This document shows positions 1-55,633 of a DNA stretch of 64,000 bases, piece after piece. The translations under genes were made by a program, and so were the position numbers. Where the stretch lies: assembly GCF_016901775.1 (NCBI RefSeq), contig NZ_JACJKW010000004.1:1-64000 (forward strand), written 5' to 3'. This stretch comes from Intestinimonas butyriciproducens. GTDB taxonomy: Bacteria > Bacillota > Clostridia > Oscillospirales > Butyricicoccaceae. The notes below the pieces were generated by a model. The model did no database searches, was not told the origin of the DNA, and saw only the letters and a program-made list of their open reading frames with translations. Every line of letters begins with the position of its first letter. Within the stretch, counting starts at the first letter, position 1.

Positions 1-3
1 CAT

Positions 4-157
4 GTTTTCGCTTGTCCCCTTTGCGGGACGAGAAAACGGCCATGAAATCGGTATCATAACCGCTCTGTGGTTATGATACCACAAAGCGAAGCGAAGTGGT
101 ATATTGGCCGTGTTTTCGGTTGTCCCCTTTGTGGGACGAGAAAACGGCCATGAAATC
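4..157 (+). repeat. Two direct copies (4-49 and 112-157) of a 46-bp hairpin-forming unit, GTTTTCG[C/G]TTGTCCCCTTTG[C/T]GGGACGAGAAAACGGCCATGAAATC. The 62-bp spacer contains a perfect 12-bp inverted repeat, GGTATCATAACC / GGTTATGATACC. The window starts inside copy 1, so more copies may lie upstream.
   Basis: Read directly. The two copies differ at 2 positions. Nested stems GTTTTC/GAAAAC and GTCCC/GGGAC. Lies in the 5' region of the cupin gene. Confidence 0.7.
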
Positions 158-601: not shown

Positions 602-612
602 GTCCAGTGCCT

Positions 613-676
613 GGACGGCCATAGTCCGGTGTCCGGACAGCCATAGTCCGTTGTCCGGACGGCCATACTACGGGGC
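613..676. repeat. 22-bp tandem repeat of about 3 units (GGACGGCCATAGTCCGGTGTCC).
   Basis: Read directly in the intergenic region between the convergent cupin and peptidase genes. Confidence 0.7.
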
Positions 677-2692: not shown

Positions 2693-2749
2693 TGGTCCCC
2701 TCCTTGCTCTTGATGAAAAAGGCCCGGTTTGCTCCGGGCCTTTCCCGTG

Positions 2750-2941
2750 TGGAAAAAGGGACAAAAGCCACTTTTTCGAGTTTTTGCAAGGGTCTGGCGG
2801 CGAGCCGCCGCTCCCATTTTTTCTTTGCTCCGGTAGGTTGTGTACGCCCGGGCAAAAAATGTTTGCCTGCGGGGTCACCCCGCCCTTGAGAAGTGTAAAA
2901 ACCGCCGCACGGGTCACCGGTTTTTACAAATTGATGAAAGA
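2750..2941 (-). repeat. Terminator-associated intergenic repeat, copy A (long form, inverted orientation).
   Basis: Homologous to copies at 12327-12514, 14204-14329, 49276-49400 and 51891-52025. Shares the 95-bp internal module with copy B. Confidence 0.8.
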
Positions 2942-2996
2942 CCGGACAAATAACCCCTCTAACCAGATCAGTTTTGGGGTAATCAGGCTTTTTTGA

Positions 2997-12167: not shown

Positions 12168-12249
12168 GGATCATCGTCCTCCTTCACAAAAATCGGTGTG
12201 ATTTTACCGCTGTTGTCTGTACACTATTATACCTTTCTCTTTCCCCAAA

Positions 12250-12276
12250 GACAAGGCGGGATTTTACTGCCTTGTC
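12250..12276. repeat. 27-bp hairpin GACAAGGCGGGATTTTACTGCCTTGTC; left direct repeat flanking repeat copy B.
   Basis: Identical copy at 12523-12549. Confidence 0.8.
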
Positions 12277-12326
12277 ACAAACTGCCCGAAACCTATCCTG
12301 CAACAAGAGATGGTTTACTCTATTCT

Positions 12327-12514
12327 TCATCCATCCGCAAAAAGCCGCGACCTGTGCGTGGCTTTTTGCACCTATCAAGGGCGGGGTGACCCCGCAGGCA
12401 AACATTCTTTGCCCGGGCGTACACAACCTACCGGAGCAAAGAAAAAATGGGAGCGGCGGCTCGCCGCCAGACCCTTGCAAAGACTCGAAAAAGTGGCTTC
12501 CGCCACTTTTTCGA
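12327..12514 (+). repeat. Terminator-associated intergenic repeat, copy B (long form).
   Basis: Contains the 5' hairpin GCAAAAAGCC...GGCTTTTTGC and the 3' hairpin GAAAAAGTGGC...GCCACTTTTTC. Shares a 95-bp internal module with copy A. Confidence 0.8.
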
Positions 12515-12522
12515 AACGCTGA

Positions 12523-12549
12523 GACAAGGCGGGATTTTACTGCCTTGTC
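12523..12549. repeat. Right copy of the 27-bp hairpin direct repeat flanking copy B.
   Basis: Identical to 12250-12276. Overlaps the stop codon of the serine hydrolase. Confidence 0.8.
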
Positions 12550-13930
12550 AGGATGCGTCCGCCGGTGCGCACGCCCCAGACCCCTCGTCCTTCTTCCCGG
12601 AGAAGCAGGATATCGCTCTGGGAAAATTCCCCGGGCAGGATGATCAGATCGTGCCCGGCCATGATGAACTGCCGTTCCTTGCCGCCCATGGTCAGGTGGA
12701 GATCCCCGTTTTCCCAGGTGAAGGTGACCTCGTTGCCTTCGGCACTCGCAAACTTGCCCAGGCAGCTCTTCTTTTCCTCTTCGCTCCAGCCGGCGTCCTG
12801 CCAGGTTTTCATGGGCGCGGGCACAGCGGCTCCGGTGACCCAGCGAAGGGCTTCCTCGGCCACCCGGCTGACCGGCACGCCGCTGGTGTTGCACAGCACC
12901 ACAACGCCGGCTTCCAGCTCAGGAGAGAAGGCAAAATGGCTGGAGATGCCGGTCATGCTGCCACCGTGGCCCACCATGCGCACCCCTTCCAGGTCACTCA
13001 TGGCCATGCCGTAGCCATACCACTGGCCGTAGCGGTAATGCTGCCGGGGCTTCATCATCTCCCGGATGCCATAGGGGCTGAGCAGGCGGCCATGCTCCCC
13101 TTTGCCCTCGTTGAGATACATCTGCACATATTTCTTCATGCTGCCCAGGCTGGCCTTGACGGCGCCGCCGCCCATGAGCACAAAAGCGTTGTCATAGTAA
13201 TCCCGGCACCAGTGACGCTTGCCGTCTTTGTGGAAATAGAGCTTTGTGCTGTTAGGGTCCTGGGCCGGGGCGATAAACAGGCCGGTGGCCCGGTCCATCC
13301 CCAGGGGGGCGAACACATTCTTTTCCAGATAGTCCTGGAAGGAATTTTCCCCGCCATAGCGGCGGATGATCTCAGACAGCAGGCCGTAGCTGTCGTTGCT
13401 GTAACTCATGTACTCCCCGGGCAGACCGGTGCGGGCTTCTTCTTCGTCCAAACCCTTGCACACCCGGCGGCAGCCCTCCATGGCCAGACCCGGATGGGGG
13501 CCGATCTCGGCTTTGCCCTCCTGCCAGATGCCCATTGACCGGGCCACCTCTTCCACCAGCATCCGCCGCTTGGGAAGAAATCCCCCGGCGTGGCTGAGCA
13601 GATGGGCCACCGTCACCGGCTGGGCGGCGTGGGCGTTGTGGAACTCCGGCAGATACCGGCTCACCGGCCCCCATAGGTCGATCACTCCCTTCTCCGCCAG
13701 CTGCATGATGCTCAGGGCCGTAAAGGACTTGGACACCGACGCCAGACCAAAAATGGTGTTTTCGTCAATGACCGTCTGATTTTCCCCATCCCGGAAGCCA
13801 AAAAATTTCTGATACAGGGTCACATTCTTGTCGACCACCGCCATTGCCAGACCGGCAGCCTCATAATGGGCCATCATCTTTTCGATCCACTGTTCCAGAG
13901 GGCGGATGCCCTCCATAGTGCCTTTGTTCA
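12537..13930 (-). CDS. Serine hydrolase of the beta-lactamase / D-aminopeptidase family (class C-like).
   Basis: SxxK motif (ASVSKSF). About 464 aa. Start assigned to the GTG at 13930 with AAAGGAG RBS. The ORF track begins upstream at 13973. Confidence 0.7.
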
Positions 13931-14038: not shown

Positions 14039-14098
14039 GCAAATGCCCCCATTTGGTAGCAAATGCCCCCGTTTGGTAGCAAATGCCTCCATTTGGGG
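14039..14098. repeat. Three tandem 20-bp units (GCAAATGCCCCCATTTGGTA), each containing the inverted repeat CAAATG(N5)CATTTG.
   Basis: Read directly. About 110-170 bp upstream of the serine hydrolase start. Followed by a purine-rich tract at 14100-14200. Confidence 0.75.
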
Positions 14099-14203
14099 GC
14101 CAAAGAAAAGGAAAAGACAAAGGCAAAAACAAAAACGAAGACGAAGAAAAAAGAGAGGGGGAGGGTGAAGAAAAAGAAAAAAGGTCTCCCTTCCCTATCC
14201 CTA

Positions 14204-14329
14204 ATCAATCTGCAAAAAGCCGGGACCTGTGCGTGGCTTTTTGCACCTCTCAAGGGGCAAGTGTGCGCCAAAGGCGTGCATGCAGGCCCTTGCAAAAACT
14301 CGAAAAAGTGGCTTTTGCCACTTTTTCGA
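14204..14329 (+). repeat. Terminator-associated intergenic repeat, copy C (short form).
   Basis: Same end hairpins as copy B. Downstream of the MATE gene. Confidence 0.8.
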
Positions 14330-14428
14330 CACCCCTCCCAGGACGAAAACCACGCCTGGGAGGGAGTACACTGATGGCATAGGCCGGAGCCTTCCCAGCG
14401 GGAGCCATGGGAAAAGGCCCGGGAAAAC

Positions 14429-26552: not shown

Positions 26553-26567
26553 GAATCCCCTATCCGT

Positions 26568-26599
26568 GCGCCCCGGAAAACCCGGGGCGCAATTTTTTC
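26568..26599 (+). terminator. Rho-independent terminator (GCGCCCCGGaaaaCCCGGGGCGC plus TTTTTT).
   Basis: Read directly after the floT stop. Confidence 0.8.
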
Positions 26600-26618
26600 G
26601 AAAAAACAAAAATTTCTC

Positions 26619-29270: not shown

Positions 29271-29275
29271 ACACA

Positions 29276-29301
29276 AAAAGCGCCCTTTGGGCGCTTTTTG
29301 T
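29276..29301. terminator. Bidirectional terminator AAAAAGCGCCCtttGGGCGCTTTTT (left copy of a duplicated 25-mer).
   Basis: Identical 25-mer at 29946-29972. Confidence 0.75.
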
Positions 29302-29498
29302 TATTGCTCCACTGTAAAAATTTCTTCAATGGACACCCCAAACACCTTGGCAATGTTCCAGGCCAGCACCAAAGAAGGGTTATATCGTCCCTTCTCCAGA
29401 TTTCCTATGGTCTCCCGCCGGACTCCCACCAGTTTTGCCAGTTCTTCCTGCTTCATGTTGTGACGGGCCCGATATTCTTTGATCCTATTTCTGATCAC
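29301..29498 (-). CDS. XRE-family (Cro/C1-type) HTH transcriptional regulator, about 65 aa.
   Basis: HTH motif [27 protein letters not shown] start at 29498 with GGGGG RBS. An alternative ATG lies at 29528. Confidence 0.75.
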
Positions 29499-29856
29499 AT
29501 TCCAGCCCCCATCTCTCTTTGAATCCATAATAGGCAGCAGACAAGGCGTACACCACCACAGACACGATCCATCCCCAAGCCAGGCCGGTGATCAGCGCCT
29601 TGTTCTCTTTCTGGGAAGCCAGGAAGAAGGCGCCCAACGAAACCAGAGCCATCGCAATCATACCGCAATAAAAGGCTCGGGAAGCCGACCGGTCCATATA
29701 TTCTTCCAACATCTCATCTGACTGAACAAAGAAATATTCAAAATTCACCGCAAAGGCAAAAAAAGATAAAAAAGCTTTTGACTCGGTAAACAAACCAATC
29801 AATCCCAGAAGAGAAAGCAACCCCATCATGCCATACAGTATGCGTCTTGATTTCAT
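29485..29856 (-). CDS. DUF3796-like small membrane protein; partner of the XRE regulator.
   Basis: 123 aa, 4 TM segments. ATG at 29856 with AGGAGG RBS. Overlaps the XRE start by 14 nt. The ORF track begins upstream at 29913. Confidence 0.65.
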
Positions 29857-29874
29857 AGAAATGCCTCCTTTGAT

Positions 29875-29915
29875 ATGTGGTATATTTCTATCTTTATGAT
29901 ATAAATATACCACAT
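29875..29915. promoter_or_regulatory. Perfect 11-bp inverted repeat ATGTGGTATAT(N19)ATATACCACAT in the AT-rich promoter region of the DUF3796-XRE pair; candidate operator.
   Basis: Read directly. 19-59 nt upstream of the DUF3796 start. Confidence 0.5.
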
Positions 29916-29945
29916 TTATTTCTTATGATCAAGACTATATTGGTC

Positions 29946-29974
29946 CTTATGAAAAAAAGCGCCCTTTGGGCGCT
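29946..29974. terminator. Second copy of the terminator AAAAAGCGCCCtttGGGCGCTTTTT (right flank of the XRE cassette, downstream of the EamA gene).
   Basis: Identical 25-mer to 29277-29301. Confidence 0.7.
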
Positions 29975-29977
29975 TTT

Positions 29978-30826
29978 TTATATTTCCTTTTTCAGACTGC
30001 CCCAGATGGCGCAGGCAAAGACCAGGCTGCCCCCCAGCACTTCCCGGAGAGATGGGATCTCTCTCAAAAACAAAGCCGCCAGCAAAATGCCGTATACCGG
30101 CTCCAGGCAGGAAACCACGCTGGCCGTCTGGGCCCGGATGGTGCGCAGGCTGCCGATAAAGAGGGTATGGGACAGAGCGGTGAACACCACTCCCAGCAGC
30201 AAAAGTCCGCCCCAATCGGAAAGAGAGAGGGCAGGACGCAGCCACAAAAAGCAAGGAGTTAAAATCACCGCTGCCCACATCTGTTCCCAGAAGGAGACCA
30301 TGGCCGCGGGAAAGTTTCCCACCCATTTCTGATTGAACAGCCCCAGCAGAGCATAGCTGAAACCGGACAAAAGCCCCCACAAGGCCCCCAGCCACAGCGT
30401 TCCCTCCCCTTCCAGAGGCGTGGCCAGCAAAATGCCGCCGAAGGCCACAAAAGCCAGCACCACATCCCCTCCCCGGGGCTTTTTCCCGGTAAAGAGGGGC
30501 TCCAGAAAGGTGACGAATAGGGGGAAGGCCGAAAAAGAGATCAGACCCATGGCCACAGTGGACACCTGAATGGCCTGATAAAAAGTGCTCCAGTGAAAGG
30601 CCAGCAATGCGCCCAAGGCAGCCAGGGCCGCCTTGGTGCGCCCCGGCACAGCCCAGGGGTTTTCTCCCCGGATCTTCAGCCAAAGAAGGAGAGACAGGGC
30701 GGAAAAAACCACCCTGCCCCAGGTGATGATCAGGGAATGCTGGCGTATCACCTTGCCGAACAGCCCTGAAAGGCCAAAGAGCAGCACCGCCATATGGAGC
30801 TGCCAGAGCCCCGGCCGTTTTTTCAT
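29978..30826 (-). CDS. EamA/DMT-family transporter.
   Basis: 282 aa, 10 TM segments, two EamA repeats. Confidence 0.8.
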   Translation of the reverse strand: MKKRPGLWQLHMAVLLFGLSGLFGKVIRQHSLIITWGRVVFSALSLLLWLKIRGENPWAVPGRTKAALAALGALLAFHWSTFYQAIQVSTVAMGLISFSAFPLFVTFLEPLFTGKKPRGGDVVLAFVAFGGILLATPLEGEGTLWLGALWGLLSGFSYALLGLFNQKWVGNFPAAMVSFWEQMWAAVILTPCFLWLRPALSLSDWGGLLLLGVVFTALSHTLFIGSLRTIRAQTASVVSCLEPVYGILLAALFLREIPSLREVLGGSLVFACAIWGSLKKEI

Positions 30827-49184: not shown

Positions 49185-49203
49185 GAAACCATAAAAATCC
49201 CCC
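49185..49203. repeat. 19-bp direct repeat AAATCCCCCGGCGCTGCAA, left flank of repeat copy D.
   Basis: Second copy at 49406-49424, where it forms the 5' half of the gap terminator hairpin. Confidence 0.7.
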
Positions 49204-49275
49204 GGCGCTGCAAGATATAGCAAAGAGAAAACCGATCACAGAATAATACAGTATCAGGCGCCCTTTTGCCCTTTT

Positions 49276-49400
49276 TTCAATCTGCAAAAAGCGGCGACCT
49301 GTGCGTCGGTTTTTGCACCTCTCAAGAGACCGGTGTGCGCCAAGGGCGTGCGCCGTGCCTCTTGCAAAAACTGGAAAAAGCGGCTAAGCCGCTTTTTCGA
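49276..49400 (+). repeat. Terminator-associated intergenic repeat, copy D (short form). Its end hairpins carry covarying substitutions.
   Basis: The 3' hairpin GAAAAAGCGGC..GCCGCTTTTTC differs from GAAAAAGTGGC..GCCACTTTTTC of the other copies by a compensatory pair. Confidence 0.8.
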
Positions 49401-49405
49401 AAGGC

Positions 49406-49424
49406 AAATCCCCCGGCGCTGCAA
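49406..49424. repeat. Right copy of the 19-bp direct repeat flanking copy D.
   Basis: Identical to 49185-49203. Confidence 0.7.
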
Positions 49425-49451
49425 TGTGCGCCGGGGGATTGAAAATGGCTC

Positions 49452-50720: not shown

Positions 50721-51860
50721 TTGGAAAATACCGCTCTGGGGGACATGACCTGGTTCCCCGCCGCCGATGACTATCTGATGATCTGCAGCCCGTCGGGCCG
50801 CATCCTCTTTGTCACAAGCAGCCTGCGTTTTCAGCTGGAAGAGGACCTGGTAGGCCGCTCTCTCAACGACATTTTCCCCGATTCCCTGGCCGCTCAGATC
50901 GTCACCCTGGCCCATGAGGGCCAGAGCCATTCCTTTCACACAAAGCTCCAGGGCAAAGCCGTCCGGTGCAGTATGACCCCCAAAGAGGGGAATATGCTCA
51001 TCACCGTCTTTTTCGCCCAGGAAAACCATCCCCCGGCCATGGCCCTCAGCGCCGCCGAGCTGCTCAGCCGGGAAATCAGCAGCAGCCTGGGCACCATGTT
51101 TGCCGCCTGGGATGCCCTGCCCCCCGCCCAGGACCAAAAAAGCCAATACGCCAAAAGCGTGCTGCGCCAAGGGATGTACCGGCTGATGCGCATGGGCCGC
51201 AATCTGCTGGACTGCGCCCGGGCCGAAAGCGGCCAGCTGGAGCTGAATGTGCGCCAGAGTGATCTGTGCCAGCTTGTGCGGCAGCTGTGCCAGCGGGTAG
51301 AGCCCATGGCCGAAGAAGTGGGCATTCCCTTTTCCTGGGACTGCCCGGAGGAACCCCTGTTCTGCCCCTTCGACCGGGAGCGGGTGGAGCGGGTGATCCT
51401 GGGTCTGATTTCCAATTCCATGAAATACACCCGGCAGAAAAACCAGATGCGGCTGGTGCTCACCAAACGGGAGGACAACGCCGTGATCATCCTGGCCGAC
51501 CGGGGCCGGGGCATTCCCGCTTCGGTGCTGCCCCATCTTTTCAGCCGTCCCCCCGAATCCTCCCTGTCCCGGGGACTGATGGTGGGAGGGGCCGGCTACA
51601 GCCTGATGCTGGCCCGGGCGGTGATGCTGCTCCACGGCGGCACCTGCGTCATTTCCAGCGTTCCCGATGAGGGCACCACCGTCACCCTGTCCCTGCCCCT
51701 GCACCCTTCCACCCCCTATCTGTCCCTGGGCGCTCCGCCCCCGGACTATGCCAGCGGCTTCGACCATGTGCTGCTGGAACTCTCCACCGCCTTGCCCGCT
51801 TCTTTCTATAAAGAGGAGCCCAAAAAATCAAAGTCCTATCCTGCTTCCCCGGAGCAATAA
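50721..51860 (+). CDS. Orphan cytoplasmic histidine-kinase-like protein (PAS-like N-terminus, DHp-like region, intact HATPase_c). The H-box His appears to be replaced by Arg.
   Basis: TTG start with AAGGAGG RBS. N box NSMKYT, G1 box DRGRGIP, G2 box GGAGYSLMLA. The DHp region reads LSREISSSLGTM where SHELRTPL is expected. Confidence 0.7.
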   Translation: MENTALGDMTWFPAADDYLMICSPSGRILFVTSSLRFQLEEDLVGRSLNDIFPDSLAAQIVTLAHEGQSHSFHTKLQGKAVRCSMTPKEGNMLITVFFAQENHPPAMALSAAELLSREISSSLGTMFAAWDALPPAQDQKSQYAKSVLRQGMYRLMRMGRNLLDCARAESGQLELNVRQSDLCQLVRQLCQRVEPMAEEVGIPFSWDCPEEPLFCPFDRERVERVILGLISNSMKYTRQKNQMRLVLTKREDNAVIILADRGRGIPASVLPHLFSRPPESSLSRGLMVGGAGYSLMLARAVMLLHGGTCVISSVPDEGTTVTLSLPLHPSTPYLSLGAPPPDYASGFDHVLLELSTALPASFYKEEPKKSKSYPASPEQ

Positions 51861-51887
51861 AAAAAGAGCCTTTCGGCTCTTTTTTTA
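51859..51887. terminator. Terminator AAAAAAAGAGCCtttcGGCTCTTTTTTT (left copy of a duplicated 34-bp segment).
   Basis: The same sequence recurs at 52066-52102 on the other side of repeat copy E. Confidence 0.75.
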
Positions 51888-51890
51888 ACA

Positions 51891-52025
51891 TGTCGAAAAA
51901 GTGGCCTGGGCCACTTTTTCGAGTTTTGCAAGAAGCTGCATGCACGCCTGTGGCGCACACTGGCTTCTTGATCGGTGCAAAAAGCCACGCACAGGTCGCG
52001 GCTTTTTGCAGATTGATGAAAGATA
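51891..52025 (-). repeat. Terminator-associated intergenic repeat, copy E (short form, inverted).
   Basis: Reverse complement matches copies C and D end to end. Confidence 0.8.
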
Positions 52026-52072
52026 AAACAAAAGAATTTCTCACATGATATGTTTTTTCATCGTCTACGCAA

Positions 52073-52101
52073 TAAAAAAGAGCCTTTCGGCTCTTTTTTT
52101 A
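52073..52101. terminator. Second copy of terminator AAAAAAGAGCCtttcGGCTCTTTTTTT (tatD side).
   Basis: Direct duplicate of 51859-51887. Confidence 0.75.
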
Positions 52102-52106
52102 TTGCG

Positions 52107-52874
52107 TTATGGGATATTGAAAAATCGCTTGCCGTTTTCCAGGGTGATCCGGGCCGCTTCCTCCGTGGAGATGCCCTTGATGTTGCCGATGCACTCGGCC
52201 ACCTTCCACACCTTGGAGGAATCGTTCCGCTCCCGGCGGAAGGGCTCCGGGGTGAGGTAGGGGGAGTCGGTTTCGATCATCACCCGGTCCAGGGGCAGCC
52301 ACTGGAGCACTTCCAGAGCCCGGCGGGCGTTTTTATAGGTGATGACTCCAGTGAAGGAGAGCATCCAGCCCATCTTCACCAAAGTTTTGGCATCCTCCAG
52401 ACTGCCGGAATAGCAGTGGAACACACCTCGCACCCCCGGGTGCTCCCGCACCATCTCCATGCTGTCTCCATGGGCTTCCCGGTCGTGCACCACCACCGGA
52501 AGCCCCAGCTTTTCCGCCAGCTCCATCTGGAGGGCAAAGACTTTCTTCTGGTGCTCTTTGGGGGGATTGTCCTCCCAGTGATAGTCCAGGCCGATCTCTC
52601 CGATGGCCTTGACTTTTTCGTCCCGGGCCAGCTTTTCCAGCTCGTCCATCTGGCTCTCTTCAAAATCCCCGCAGTCCGAAGGGTGAATGCCCACGGCGGC
52701 ATAGACAAAGGGGAAGGTATGGGCCAGTTCCACCGCCTTGCGGGAGGAGGGCAGGTCACAGCCCGGGTTGACGATCAGATCCACGCCCTGCTGGGGCAAA
52801 CCGGCCAGCACCTCCAGCCGGTCTTTGTTGAAGGCTCCCGAGTCGTAGTGGGCGTGGGTATCAAAGACCCCCAT
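52107..52874 (-). CDS. tatD: TatD-family metal-dependent hydrolase (DNase).
   Basis: N-terminal HAHxD and typical TatD motifs. Its start overlaps the metG stop. Confidence 0.85.
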   Translation of the reverse strand: MGVFDTHAHYDSGAFNKDRLEVLAGLPQQGVDLIVNPGCDLPSSRKAVELAHTFPFVYAAVGIHPSDCGDFEESQMDELEKLARDEKVKAIGEIGLDYHWEDNPPKEHQKKVFALQMELAEKLGLPVVVHDREAHGDSMEMVREHPGVRGVFHCYSGSLEDAKTLVKMGWMLSFTGVITYKNARRALEVLQWLPLDRVMIETDSPYLTPEPFRRERNDSSKVWKVAECIGNIKGISTEEAARITLENGKRFFNIP

Positions 52875-54940: not shown

Positions 54941-54969
54941 AAAAAAACACAAGCGGCGTGACGCCGCTG
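54941..54969 (-). terminator. Intrinsic terminator inside the metG upstream region (AGCGGCGucacGCCGCU plus U-run), followed by a candidate promoter TTGTGT ... TATGAT.
   Basis: Read on the minus strand. Could be the end of the upstream gene or a leader attenuator. Confidence 0.5.
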
Positions 54970-54970
54970 T

Positions 54971-55024
54971 CATACTTTCTTTGCCTTGGTGAACACAACC
55001 GTCCCTGGCTCTATTGCACAGCGG
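54971..55024. repeat. 54-bp direct repeat, unit 1 (CATACTTTCTTTGCCTTGGTGAACACAACCGTCCCTGGCTCTATTGCACAGCGG).
   Basis: 48 of 54 positions identical to unit 2 at 55066-55119. Between them lies the palindrome GCGGGGgCGCCCCGC. Confidence 0.75.
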
Positions 55025-55065
55025 GGGAGCGCAGTACGGGTGCAGCGTCAGCGGGGCGCCCCCGC

Positions 55066-55119
55066 GGCCATACTTTCTTGGCCCTGGTGAACACAACTGT
55101 CCCTGGCTCTACCGCACAG
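55066..55119. repeat. 54-bp direct repeat, unit 2; overlaps the last codons of the upstream hypothetical gene.
   Basis: See unit 1. Confidence 0.75.
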
Positions 55120-55633
55120 CGGAAACGCCTTTTTGGCCGATGGCTTTTCCCAAGGCAAGCAGGCTTTCCAGAAGCTCCGGGTTACGGCTCTGATAAAAGT
55201 CCTCCCATTCCGTTTCCCACTGGCCCTCTGTGTTTTTCAGCTTCCACACCTTCACCTGTGGCCGCTCCGCCCCGATCAAGGACAGCGCCCAGGCGTCCTT
55301 TCCCTGGCGCATCACAAAGCGAGTAGGGAAATACATCTGTCCCACTTCGGTCATCCGATGGGGCCAGGTGCCCAAAGAAAGATACAGATCCAGCAGATCG
55401 TCATACCGAAGATCTTCTGCCAGCGCCCGGATGGTGCCCTGGGCCCCTTTCCCCGAAACCGGCACGGTGATTCCTCTGTCCACATAGACATACTGAGTTT
55501 CCTGGAAAGGGGAAAGCCCCAGCTTTTCCGTGGGGCCGCCTTCTGCCCAGGAAAACAGGCCTACCACTCCCAGAATTATCGCTGTCAGCAGTACAAGACG
55601 CACAAAAAACCGTTTTCCAATATAGCGGATCAT
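55109..55633 (-). CDS. Hypothetical membrane-anchored protein (174 aa).
   Basis: N-terminal TM segment. No family recognised. Confidence 0.55.
   Translation of the reverse strand: MIRYIGKRFFVRLVLLTAIILGVVGLFSWAEGGPTEKLGLSPFQETQYVYVDRGITVPVSGKGAQGTIRALAEDLRYDDLLDLYLSLGTWPHRMTEVGQMYFPTRFVMRQGKDAWALSLIGAERPQVKVWKLKNTEGQWETEWEDFYQSRNPELLESLLALGKAIGQKGVSAVR

What the first reader, a model, noticed from the sequence alone, without database searches (positions are those of the whole stretch)
51859..52101. Repeat copy E sits between two identical copies of a 34-bp terminator segment, a duplication-on-insertion signature
GCAATAAAAAAAGAGCCTTTCGGCTCTTTTTTTA at 51854-51888 is repeated as GCAATAAAAAAGAGCCTTTCGGCTCTTTTTTTATTGC at 52066-52102. 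The two copies bracket repeat copy E plus 45 bp. Two convergent genes (the HK-like gene and tatD) would normally share one bidirectional terminator. Here that terminator is duplicated with the element between the copies. The same pattern occurs at copy B (27-bp hairpin GACAAGGCGGGATTTTACTGCCTTGTC at 12250-12276 and 12523-12549) and at copy D (19-bp AAATCCCCCGGCGCTGCAA at 49185-49203 and 49406-49424, which is half of the gap terminator stem). Direct duplications of 19-34 bp of hairpin DNA are much longer than the target-site duplications of classical IS elements. They suggest an insertion mechanism that targets terminator hairpins, or repeated recombination at hairpins.
Basis: partly seen in the sequence, partly recalled or inferred. 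Interest (0 to 1): 0.8.

Follow-up and report, generated by a model that had tools for sequence, protein, structure and literature searches.

The report
Terminator-targeting miniature transposon duplicates hairpins
Repeat copy E is a roughly 180-bp non-autonomous transposon (MITE) with the end sequences of IS1182-family insertion sequences; it landed at the foot of the terminator shared by two convergent genes and duplicated the whole hairpin, an under-documented but already recorded habit of that family.

Summary
A 34-nt terminator segment flanks a 181-bp insert at 51854-52105. The two copies differ by one A, and some of the finding's coordinates are a few bases off. Related strains carry the same locus with a single terminator, so this is a target-site duplication (TSD).

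The insert belongs to a 175-245 bp MITE family:
- 15-nt terminal inverted repeats, GAGCGTGTCGAAAAAG ... TTTTTCGACAGTCTG
- three internal hairpins
- five copies in the window, and at least 31 in Ruminococcaceae bacterium AM07-15

Of 72 complete copies, 46 have 13-39 bp flanking duplications, and 30 of those are complete GC-rich hairpins. The left end abuts a hairpin foot in 44 of 46 copies. The right end lands at the other foot, in the loop, or 4-5 bp away.

Full-length 1.57-1.60 kb elements have near-identical ends. Their transposase scores 408 bits against NCBIfam IS1182 (cut-off 270). They show the same whole-hairpin duplications of 17-40 bp.

Most likely a DDE transposase joins the element ends at the 5' feet of an extruded cruciform. 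The cognate transposase was not found in the host lineage. The IS200/TnpB and Y/S-recombinase suggestions are not supported. Verdict: a new member of a known kind.

The parts
50721..51860 (+). Histidine-kinase-like gene (HATPase_c). Its stop codon TAA (51858-51860) lies inside the duplicated segment.
   Evidence: Pfam HATPase_c, E=1e-18; sequence
51854..51887 (+). Left copy of the target-site duplication: bidirectional terminator hairpin GCAAT-A7-GAGCC-TTTC-GGCTC-T7-A.
   Evidence: a single copy at the empty sites L001, L002 and L103
51888..52068 (+). MITE copy E (181 bp), left end to right end on the + strand. It is absent from L001, L002 and L103 and reduced to a 47-bp scar in L045 and L095.
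51888..51921 (+). Left terminal inverted repeat (ACATGTCGAAAAAG) running into hairpin HP1 (CGAAAAAGTGGCC-TGG-GCCACTTTTTCG, 51894-51921). This is the same layout as IRL plus hairpin in the full-length IS1182-family elements.
51929..51970 (+). Middle hairpin of the MITE. This region varies between copies: A and B carry an extra ~85-nt block here.
51977..52009 (+). Hairpin HP2, GCAAAAAGCCACGCACAGGTCGCGGCTTTTTGC. It is terminator-like, and the GCC/GGC versus CCG/CGG forms across copies both keep the stem paired.
52053..52068 (+). Decayed right terminal inverted repeat, TTTTTTCATCGTCTAC (consensus TTTTTCGACAGTCTG). It is part of what the finding called the '45 bp'.
52069..52105 (+). Right copy of the duplication plus ATTGC: the full 37-nt palindrome, which serves as the terminator of tatD on the minus strand.
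52107..52874 (-). tatD-family hydrolase gene, convergent with the kinase gene.
   Evidence: Pfam TatD_DNase, E=3e-83
49195..49424 (-). MITE copy D (49214-49405, minus orientation) with its 19-nt duplication (49195-49213 and 49406-49424). The duplication covers the loop and 3' stem of the gap terminator hairpin (49406-49440). The site is empty in L001.
12249..12550 (-). MITE copy B (12278-12521, minus orientation) flanked by a 29-nt whole-hairpin duplication (12249-12277 and 12522-12550). The duplication includes the stop codon of the beta-lactamase-family gene.
2744..2986 (+). MITE copy A (243 bp). Its left end sits at the 3' foot of hairpin 2716-2743, and the duplication is only ~4 bp (CTTT). 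The site is empty in L028 and L054.
14183..14332 (-). MITE copy C. Its left end abuts hairpin 14333-14365. The right end is degenerate and there is no clear duplication.

Best explanation
Copy E is a non-autonomous miniature transposon (MITE) of the IS1182 family. It has no gene of its own and must be moved in trans by an IS1182-type DDE transposase, which would recognise its 15-nt terminal inverted repeats and possibly the adjacent hairpin.

The transposase selects DNA hairpins, mostly intrinsic terminators, by structure rather than by sequence. The left (IRL-type) end is joined precisely at one foot of the hairpin. The other end is joined at one of three places:
- at the opposite foot, which duplicates the whole hairpin (20-40 bp);
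- in the loop, which duplicates the loop plus the 3' stem (13-22 bp);
- a few bases away, which gives a 4-5 bp duplication.

When the palindrome is extruded as a cruciform, the two 5' feet lie next to each other at the four-way junction. An ordinary short-stagger strand transfer there, followed by gap repair, copies the entire hairpin onto both sides of the element.

At the E site this turned one shared bidirectional terminator into two, one for each convergent gene, with the element's two terminator-like hairpins between them. The insertion is therefore probably close to neutral.

Shown: the element's anatomy, the presence/absence polymorphism, the genome-wide duplication pattern, the polarity of the two ends, and the same behaviour in full-length IS1182-family elements with matching ends.
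Inferred: trans-mobilisation, the cruciform as the actual substrate, and neutrality.
For: 1. Insertion with target duplication. L001, L002 and L103 have one terminator between tatD and the kinase gene; the window, L003, L004, L006 and L096 have two, with the element between them. Single-hairpin sites also exist for D, for A, and for three other copies.
2. MITE anatomy. The element is 175-245 bp with the inverted repeats GAGCGTGTCGAAAAAG / CAGACTGTCGAAAAA and no ORF. It has at least 31 copies in AM07-15, and the scan was truncated.
3. Flanking duplications. They are 13-39 bp in 46 of 72 complete copies (about 34 independent sites), against 76 of 2000 pseudo-elements. 30 of the 46 duplications fold as hairpins (dG <= -5), against 43 of 920 control segments, and the outermost pair usually lies 0-2 nt from the duplication's ends.
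4. Polarity. A hairpin foot lies within 2 nt of the left end in 44 of 46 copies and near the right end in 31 of 46. It is left-only in 14 and right-only in 1.
5. Autonomous relatives. L147:199-1791 is a 1593-bp IS with ends CAGACTGTCGAAAAAGT+hairpin / CAGACCGTAGAAAAA and a 496-aa transposase. That protein scores 407.7 bits against NCBIfam NF033551 'IS1182 family' (cut-off 270) and carries Pfam DUF772 and DDE_Tnp_1_6.
6. Same target behaviour. Homologous full-length elements of 1572-1604 bp have whole-hairpin duplications of 40, 25, 29, 28, 29 and 17 bp in 6 of 11 contexts, and a hairpin abuts every end.
7. Literature. ISfinder lists direct repeats of 2-60 bp for IS1182 (PMC7335449). Some members target palindromes (PMC4923244 and PMC5678879, citing Siguier 2015). 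Wan et al. drew this outcome explicitly: joining at the 5' feet of a cruciform duplicates the whole stem-loop (PMC5678879, Fig 13, pathway b). IS1182 elements are over-represented between convergent genes (PMC9208149).
Against: - No IS1182-family transposase was found in the window or in about 0.7 Mb of loci from the three MITE-bearing genomes (tblastn). That is only about 7% of those genomes.
- The IS-bearing contigs are not from the host lineage.
- An IS with exactly the MITE's left end (GTGGC-type hairpin) was not found. One metagenome scan returned only L251, which is not a transposase locus.
- Five of the 11 full-length IS contexts have different hairpins on the two sides. This could reflect recombination between IS copies, metagenome assembly chimeras, or another insertion mode.
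- The best-studied family member, IS1272, deletes the target hairpin instead of duplicating it (PMC4923244, PMC5678879).
- A ~650-bp two-gene cassette without these inverted repeats is also flanked by a duplicated terminator, so hairpin duplication may not be exclusive to this transposase.
- Cruciform extrusion itself is untested.
- Copy E is old and its right repeat has decayed. It is shared by lineages about 92-96% identical in flanking DNA, so it is probably no longer mobile.
Confidence: 0.8

Rival explanations
1. The duplication is produced by host processing of cruciforms or hairpins rather than by the element's transposase. A structure-specific nuclease would cut or resolve the palindrome, the hairpin ends would be opened and filled in, and any available DNA would be ligated in between.
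For: A ~650-bp XRE-HTH + DUF3796 cassette at 29300-29953 lacks the MITE/IS inverted repeats, yet it is flanked by a 25-nt duplicated terminator and is absent from L085 and L064. Hairpin loops are flipped between empty and filled alleles at two sites, in both copies at once. Opening a hairpin from either side could produce that.
Against: The MITE and IS junctions are exact: the inverted repeat starts 0-2 nt from the hairpin foot in dozens of independent sites, with a strong left-end polarity. That points to an element-encoded activity. Loops are not flipped at three other sites. Flips are explained more simply by inversion between the outer stems of the two copies, or by template switching. The cassette was seen at one locus only.
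Confidence: 0.07
2. The element is a palindrome-associated derivative of an IS200/IS605-type (TnpA-Y1/TnpB) single-strand transposon, or it is moved by a tyrosine or serine recombinase.
For: It has subterminal hairpins and inserts next to hairpins, which superficially recalls IS200/IS605 ends and REP-targeting elements.
Against: IS200/IS605 elements have no terminal inverted repeats and make no target duplication (established knowledge of the family). Here both are present. The duplicated sequences share no common core across about 34 sites, which rules out att-type site-specific recombination. The ends match IS1182-family DDE elements.
Confidence: 0.03
3. The repeat is primarily a functional structured RNA or terminator module that has been spread or retained by selection, and the flanking repeats are by-products of recombination between similar terminators.
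For: The locus folds into five consecutive hairpins (z = -9.7). HP1 and HP2 keep pairing through changes on both sides of the stem. HP1 and HP2 are called terminator-like in copy D.
Against: Rfam has no match at gathering thresholds. The flanking repeats differ at every site and equal the local hairpin present once in empty alleles. Terminal inverted repeats are shared with transposase-encoding elements. Conserved structure is equally expected if the transposase recognises hairpinned ends. This reading is not exclusive of mobility.
Confidence: 0.05

Closest known systems
IS1182 family of insertion sequences (DDE transposase; ISfinder lists direct repeats of up to 60 bp and palindromic targets for some members)
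   Same: The terminal repeats agree at 12 (left end) and 15 (right end) of the 15 terminal positions with L147's IRL, and an adjacent A5G-stem-loop-CT5 hairpin follows the left repeat, as in full-length elements whose transposase scores 408 bits on NF033551. Direct repeats are long and variable, and targets are palindromes or terminators (PMC7335449, PMC4923244). Elements sit preferentially between convergent genes (PMC9208149).
   Different: The window's copies are 175-245 bp with no transposase gene. The cognate autonomous element was not located in the host lineage. The detailed target rules seen here were not found described in the papers searched: left end anchored at a hairpin foot, and three classes of duplication length.
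IS1272 / TnSha1 of staphylococci (IS1182 family): 'stem-loop replacing' transposition
   Same: The transposase family is the same. Insertion goes into terminator hairpins with no primary-sequence specificity, and repeated hits on the same hairpin occur (PMC4923244, PMC5678879).
   Different: IS1272 removes part or all of the target hairpin and leaves no duplication. It is proposed to join at the 3' feet. Here the hairpin is duplicated, which corresponds to joining at the 5' feet (pathway b in Fig 13 of PMC5678879). That paper drew this pathway as a possibility and did not document it.
Bacterial MITEs in general (for example Correia elements, RUP, MITEAba12)
   Same: Small, with terminal inverted repeats, no coding capacity, many intergenic copies, highly structured, and polymorphic for presence or absence between strains.
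   Different: Classical MITEs make fixed short duplications of 2-9 bp. This family's duplications run from about 4 to 39 bp and are set by the secondary structure of the target.
IS1397/ISKpn1 and IS110/IS1111-type elements that insert into REP palindromes
   Same: They target extragenic palindromes.
   Different: Those elements recognise specific REP sequences and give duplications of 3-4 bp or none (my own knowledge, not tested here). This family accepts unrelated hairpin sequences and duplicates them whole.

Membership tests
MITE derived from an IS1182-family insertion sequence | Short, non-coding element bounded by terminal inverted repeats | tested here: met
   175-245 bp with ends GAGCGTGTCGAAAAAG / CAGACTGTCGAAAAA and no transposase similarity.
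MITE derived from an IS1182-family insertion sequence | Ends match those of an autonomous element that encodes an IS1182-family transposase | tested here: met
   L147, L227, L235 and related elements have IRL CAGnCTGTCGAAAAAGT plus a hairpin and IRR rc CAGnCTGTCGAGAAAC. The transposase scores 407.7 bits on NF033551 (cut-off 270). The match is to related elements, not to an identical parent.
MITE derived from an IS1182-family insertion sequence | [quoted passage not shown] | tested here: inconclusive
   None was found in the window plus about 0.7 Mb of host-lineage loci. IS-bearing contigs do not overlap host loci. The metagenome scan for an IS with the exact MITE left end found no transposase locus. 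Whole genomes could not be scanned.
MITE derived from an IS1182-family insertion sequence | Target-site duplication and presence/absence polymorphism (evidence of transposition) | tested here: met
   Empty sites with one copy of the duplicated segment exist at the E, D and A sites and at three others. Duplications are present in 46 of 72 copies.
MITE derived from an IS1182-family insertion sequence | Family-typical long, variable direct repeats and palindromic targets | tested here: met
   MITE duplications are 13-39 bp, plus about 4 bp at copy A. IS duplications are 17-40 bp. 30 of 46 MITE duplications are hairpins. ISfinder's range is 2-60 bp (PMC7335449).
MITE derived from an IS1182-family insertion sequence | Mobilisation by DDE-type strand transfer | not testable with these tools
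   Needs biochemical or genetic assays.
IS1272-type stem-loop-replacing transposition | Target hairpin deleted and no duplication | tested here: not met
   The hairpin is retained and duplicated at E, B and most other sites.
IS200/IS605-derived palindrome-associated elements | No terminal inverted repeats, no target duplication, insertion 3' of a fixed 4-5 nt target | tested here: not met
   Inverted repeats and duplications are present, and the flanks share no common short target.
Site-specific integrative element (tyrosine or serine recombinase) | The same core sequence is duplicated at every insertion (attL/attR) | tested here: not met
   The duplicated sequence differs at each of about 34 sites.
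Known RNA families (Rfam) | Match at the family's gathering score | tested here: not met
   Only two tRNAs matched in the window.

The most novel reading that the evidence does not exclude
Whole-terminator duplication may be the signature of a structure-guided integration pathway that is more general than this one transposon. In this reading, one element end is anchored at the foot of an extruded cruciform and the position of the second joint is set by DNA structure rather than by enzyme geometry. The same pathway, or host cruciform processing, could then also insert DNA without these terminal repeats, such as the XRE/DUF3796 cassette at 29300-29953. The simultaneous flipping of both hairpin loops at two sites might be a mechanistic footprint (hairpin-end intermediates) rather than a later inversion.
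Probability: 0.12. Interest if true: 0.75.

Novelty: new member of a known kind. Interest (0 to 1): 0.45.

Why it matters
The mechanism of the IS1182 family is still listed as unknown (PMC6199540). Its palindrome targeting has been mentioned 'without detailed data' (PMC5678879).

This family supplies dozens of natural insertion sites with matched empty alleles. Together they show three things:
- the target is a hairpin recognised by structure;
- one element end is anchored at the hairpin foot;
- the duplication length tracks the hairpin.

That is natural evidence for the cruciform, 5'-foot joining model, which had only been drawn as a possibility.

It also has two practical consequences:
- Annotation: terminator pairs flanking ~200-bp structured repeats in gut Oscillospiraceae/Ruminococcaceae are transposon scars, not regulatory tandem terminators.
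- Transposon biology: inserting at terminators and regenerating one on each side is a 'safe-harbour' strategy.

Tried and rejected
- Rfam at gathering thresholds on the whole window: only tRNAs.
- blastn of the MITE against PLSDB plasmids and INPHARED phages: no match.
- Searching the 0.7 Mb of fetched loci for inverted-repeat pairs 0.7-3.5 kb apart: no full-length IS.
- All-versus-all ORF clustering to spot a repeated transposase: the only multi-copy family was M20 peptidases.
- Viral-contig scan with the 14-nt right repeat: almost all hits were chance, for example phage tape-measure genes. It did, by luck, yield the IS in L147 and a MITE in L130.
- Look-ups of the window's kinase, peptidase S9 and EamA proteins to find more empty sites: not on record.
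- Cluster-member names for the transposases: none carried an organism name.
- The two NCBI-sourced transposase loci came from other assemblies.
- Metagenome scan for an IS carrying the MITE's exact left end plus the conserved -10 box: one hit, L251, which is a left-end-like hairpin and promoter in front of a 78-aa ORF, not a transposase.
- The simple terminator scan does not call the E hairpins, because their T-run pairs with the A-run. It calls HP1 and HP2 of copy D instead.
- Loop flipping as an intrinsic product of insertion: rejected as the general rule, because three sites are unflipped.
- The 1.1-kb extra DNA next to the L079 copy: considered as a possible transposase, but its only long ORF (332 aa) sits upstream of the terminator as an ordinary-looking gene. 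It was not run against any protein family.
Full report
**1. The observation**

The region 51854-52105 reads as follows:
- the kinase gene's last codons and stop
- GCAAT-A7-GAGCC-TTTC-GGCTC-T7-A (51854-51887)
- a 181-bp insert (51888-52068)
- GCAAT-A6-GAGCC-TTTC-GGCTC-T7-ATTGC (52069-52105)
- the stop codon of tatD on the other strand

The exact 28-mer core occurs twice in the window and never in 100 shuffles. The same holds for the 29-mer around copy B (12249-12277 and 12522-12550) and the 19-mer around copy D (49195-49213 and 49406-49424).

The finding's coordinates are slightly off: by 10 nt for the first D copy and by about 3 nt for the second E copy. The two E copies differ by one A. The flanking genes are a HATPase_c kinase-like gene and a TatD hydrolase gene, which converge on each other.

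**2. It is an insertion**

Contigs that encode the identical TatD protein fall into two classes:
- L001 and L002 have 32 bp between tatD and the kinase gene, with a single terminator.
- L003, L004 and L006 have the window's arrangement.

More alleles came from a 96%-identical TatD:
- L096 is filled.
- L103 has a single terminator.
- L045 (Ruminococcaceae bacterium AM07-15) and L095 keep only a 47-bp scar, made of the element's right end joined to ...TTATTGC.

The '45 bp' that the finding set apart from the repeat is missing from the single-terminator alleles. It therefore belongs to the insert.

Other sites show the same thing:
- At D, L001 has one hairpin, AATCCTCCGGCGC-ATCTTGCA-GCGCCGGGGGATT. 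The filled alleles duplicate the loop plus the 3' stem.
- At A, L028 and L054 are empty, and the duplication is only about CTTT, in the T-run at the 3' foot.

Copy E is shared by lineages whose flanking DNA is about 92-96% identical, and its right terminal repeat has decayed. It is an old copy.

**3. What the element is**

They come from three genomes:
- Ruminococcaceae bacterium AM07-15, with at least 31 copies
- Clostridiales HRGM_Genome_3370
- an uncultured Clostridia MAG

The window is about 94% identical to AM07-15 over orthologous stretches.

Delimiting each copy by its flanking repeat gives a consistent element of 175-245 bp. In order, it contains:
- the left end, GAGCGTGTCGAAAAAG
- hairpin HP1
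- a variable middle hairpin
- hairpin HP2
- about 60 poorly conserved nucleotides
- the right end, TTTTTCGACAGTCTG

The two ends form a 15-nt terminal inverted repeat. The E locus folds into five consecutive hairpins (dG -69 kcal/mol, z = -9.7).

HP1 keeps pairing through double changes: TGGC/GCCA, CGGC/GCCG, AGGC/GCCT and GGAC/GTCC. HP2 occurs as GCC...GGC or as CCG...CGG.

There is no Rfam match and no ORF. This is a MITE.

**4. Target rules**

*How common the duplication is.* Of 72 complete copies, 46 have a flanking direct repeat of 13-39 nt (median 25) in the right geometry. The control was pseudo-elements placed at random positions in the same loci, where 76 of 2000 scored. The 46 copies represent about 34 independent sites.

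*What is duplicated.* 30 of the 46 duplications are themselves stable hairpins, against 43 of 920 random segments. The outermost base pair usually lies 0-2 nt from the ends of the duplication. Several copies scored as 'no duplication' do have the same stem on both sides but different loops.

*Polarity.* The two ends behave differently. A stable hairpin foot lies within 2 nt of the left end in 44 of 46 copies and near the right end in 31 of 46. It is at the left end only in 14 copies and at the right end only in 1.

So the left end is always placed at a hairpin foot. The right end lands at the opposite foot (whole-hairpin duplication), in the loop (half-hairpin, as at D), or a few bases away (as at A).

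*No sequence specificity.* The duplicated sequences share no common motif.

**5. The autonomous relatives**

No transposase lies in the window or in the host-lineage loci.

A scan of viral contigs with the right-end repeat was mostly noise. It did contain L147:199-1791, a 1593-bp element with:
- ends CAGACTGTCGAAAAAGT plus hairpin, and CAGACCGTAGAAAAA
- a 496-aa ORF

That ORF scores 407.7 bits against NCBIfam NF033551, 'IS1182 family transposase' (cut-off 270). It carries Pfam DUF772, DDE_Tnp_1 and DDE_Tnp_1_6.

Its homologues are very abundant in metagenomes. Full-length copies of 1572-1604 bp were recovered for four of them. Their features are:
- IRL CAGnCTGTCGAAAAAGT followed by an A5G-stem-loop-CT5 hairpin, the same layout as the MITE's left end plus HP1
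- IRR ...GTTTCTCGACAGnCTG, matching the MITE's right end (alignment)
- whole-hairpin duplications of 40, 25, 29, 28, 29 and 17 bp in 6 of 11 distinct contexts
- different hairpins on the two sides in the other 5 contexts, which may reflect IS-IS recombination or metagenome assembly chimeras (L226 shares one flank with L227)

Every IS end abuts a hairpin foot. The MITE's ends and its target behaviour are therefore those of this IS1182 subgroup.

The exact parent, with a GTGGC-type hairpin, was not found.

**6. Mechanism**

For a DDE element, the 3' ends are joined to target 5' ends, and the staggered gaps are then repaired. That is established chemistry.

A duplication equal to a palindrome means the two joints lie at the 5' foot of the hairpin on each strand. 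In a cruciform these two positions are neighbours at the four-way junction. A short-stagger enzyme acting there would duplicate the whole stem-loop.

Wan et al. drew exactly this as pathway b of their model, and joining in the loops as pathway c. They concluded that IS1272 itself uses the 3' feet and deletes the hairpin (PMC5678879; see also PMC4923244).

The data here fit pathway b, pathway c and a short-stagger mode, with the IRL-type end as the anchored end. The cruciform as substrate is an inference.

**7. Loop flips**

At the E site, all single-terminator alleles have loop TTTC in the tatD orientation. Both copies in every filled allele, and the one complete terminator left in each scar allele, have GAAA.

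At the L064-1324 site, the window's empty allele is the exact reverse complement, in the loop, of both filled copies.

Three other sites are unflipped, so flipping is not intrinsic to insertion.

The simplest explanation is inversion between the outer stem of one copy and the complementary outer stem of the other. That flips both loops and the element together. Frequent template-switch inversion of hairpin loops is an alternative. This point remains unproven.

**8. Comparison and novelty**

What is already known:
- ISfinder lists direct repeats of 2-60 bp for IS1182 (PMC7335449).
- Some members are said to target palindromes, 'without detailed data' (PMC5678879).
- The family's mechanism is tabulated as unknown (PMC6199540).
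- The family is over-represented between convergent genes (PMC9208149).

Searches of the paper library for IS1182 together with MITEs, or for terminator-duplicating MITEs, found no description of this family.

The finding is therefore a real and well-supported case of a known but poorly documented behaviour, carried by a previously undescribed MITE family of gut Ruminococcaceae/Oscillospiraceae-like Clostridia. It is not a new class of mobile element.

Noticed in passing
window 29275-29984: A ~650-bp low-GC cassette (an XRE-type HTH gene and a DUF3796 membrane-protein gene, both on the minus strand) sits between two copies of the terminator AAAAAGCGCCCTTTGGGCGCTTTTT. The orthologous loci L085 and L064 lack the cassette and have one terminator. 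The cassette has none of the MITE/IS1182 terminal repeats. In seven other contigs it appears to sit at this same locus; L249 holds too little upstream sequence to tell.
   Followed up: partly
E site (L001, L002, L103 versus filled alleles); window 26560-26600 versus L064:6540-6830; L085 versus L064 at the 29.3-kb site: The loop of a target hairpin is often the reverse complement between alleles, and at two sites both duplicated copies are flipped together relative to the empty allele. Inversion between the outer stems, or template switching, is suspected but not shown.
   Followed up: partly
L045:3645-3750 and L095 (orthologues of window 51854-52105): In AM07-15 and one metagenome strain the E copy is reduced to a 47-bp scar: the right-end repeat TCAGACGATGAAAAAACC... 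joined to TTATTGC. The junction looks like a deletion between short T-rich repeats.
   Followed up: partly
window 2790-2880 and 12385-12470 (inside copies A and B); window 54952-55024 and 55050-55122: Copies A and B carry an extra ~85-nt block in place of the middle hairpin. The block is related to a tandem pair of ~73-nt repeats upstream of the metG region, which suggests a second small repeat family nested in the MITE or exchanged with it. A third middle-region variant (GCAGCCGATTGGCCGC...) occurs in L019, L028, L036 and others.
   Followed up: no
window 602-673; L028:7290-7420, L036, L054: 22-bp tandem repeats (GTCCGGACGGCCATAGTCCGG-like) lie next to a terminator at 730-760. In AM07-15 and two MAGs a MITE copy at that terminator is cut off on its right side by this repeat array.
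   Followed up: no
window 3-157 and 14040-14100: Two 47-nt copies, 96% identical and 108 bp apart (TGTTTTCG.TTGTCCCCTTTG.GGGACGAGAAAACGGCCATGAAATC), lie at the window's start. A short ~20-bp tandem repeat (GGTAGCAAATGCCCCCATTT) lies near copy C. The nature of both is unknown.
   Followed up: no
L048:6890-7100, L009:1011-1030, L065:6659-6680, L081:7332-7350, L037: Some hairpins carry a second left-end-like sequence right after the duplicated hairpin, or element ends lying back to back. This suggests repeated hits on the same terminator, or insertion into another copy's HP1 (in L037 the 35-nt 'duplication' includes 26 nt of a MITE left end).
   Followed up: no
L130:3106-3327 (minus strand): A viral contig carries a 221-bp MITE with the same terminal repeats, flanked by a 26-nt hairpin duplication (AGCCTTCCCCCCTCGGGGGAAGGCAG).
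   Followed up: no
L251:1930-2030: A left-end-like sequence with its hairpin (ACTGTCGAAAAAGTGGCGCTCAGCCACTTTTTTT) is followed by TGGTATAAT and a 78-aa ORF that is not a transposase. It may be a solo end supplying a promoter context, or it may be chance.
   Followed up: no
L079:5987-6985: Compared with its orthologue L029, L079 has an extra 1.1 kb holding a 332-aa ORF just upstream of the terminator that carries the MITE. By eye the ORF resembles an abortive-infection (Abi) protein, but it was not run against any protein family.
   Followed up: no
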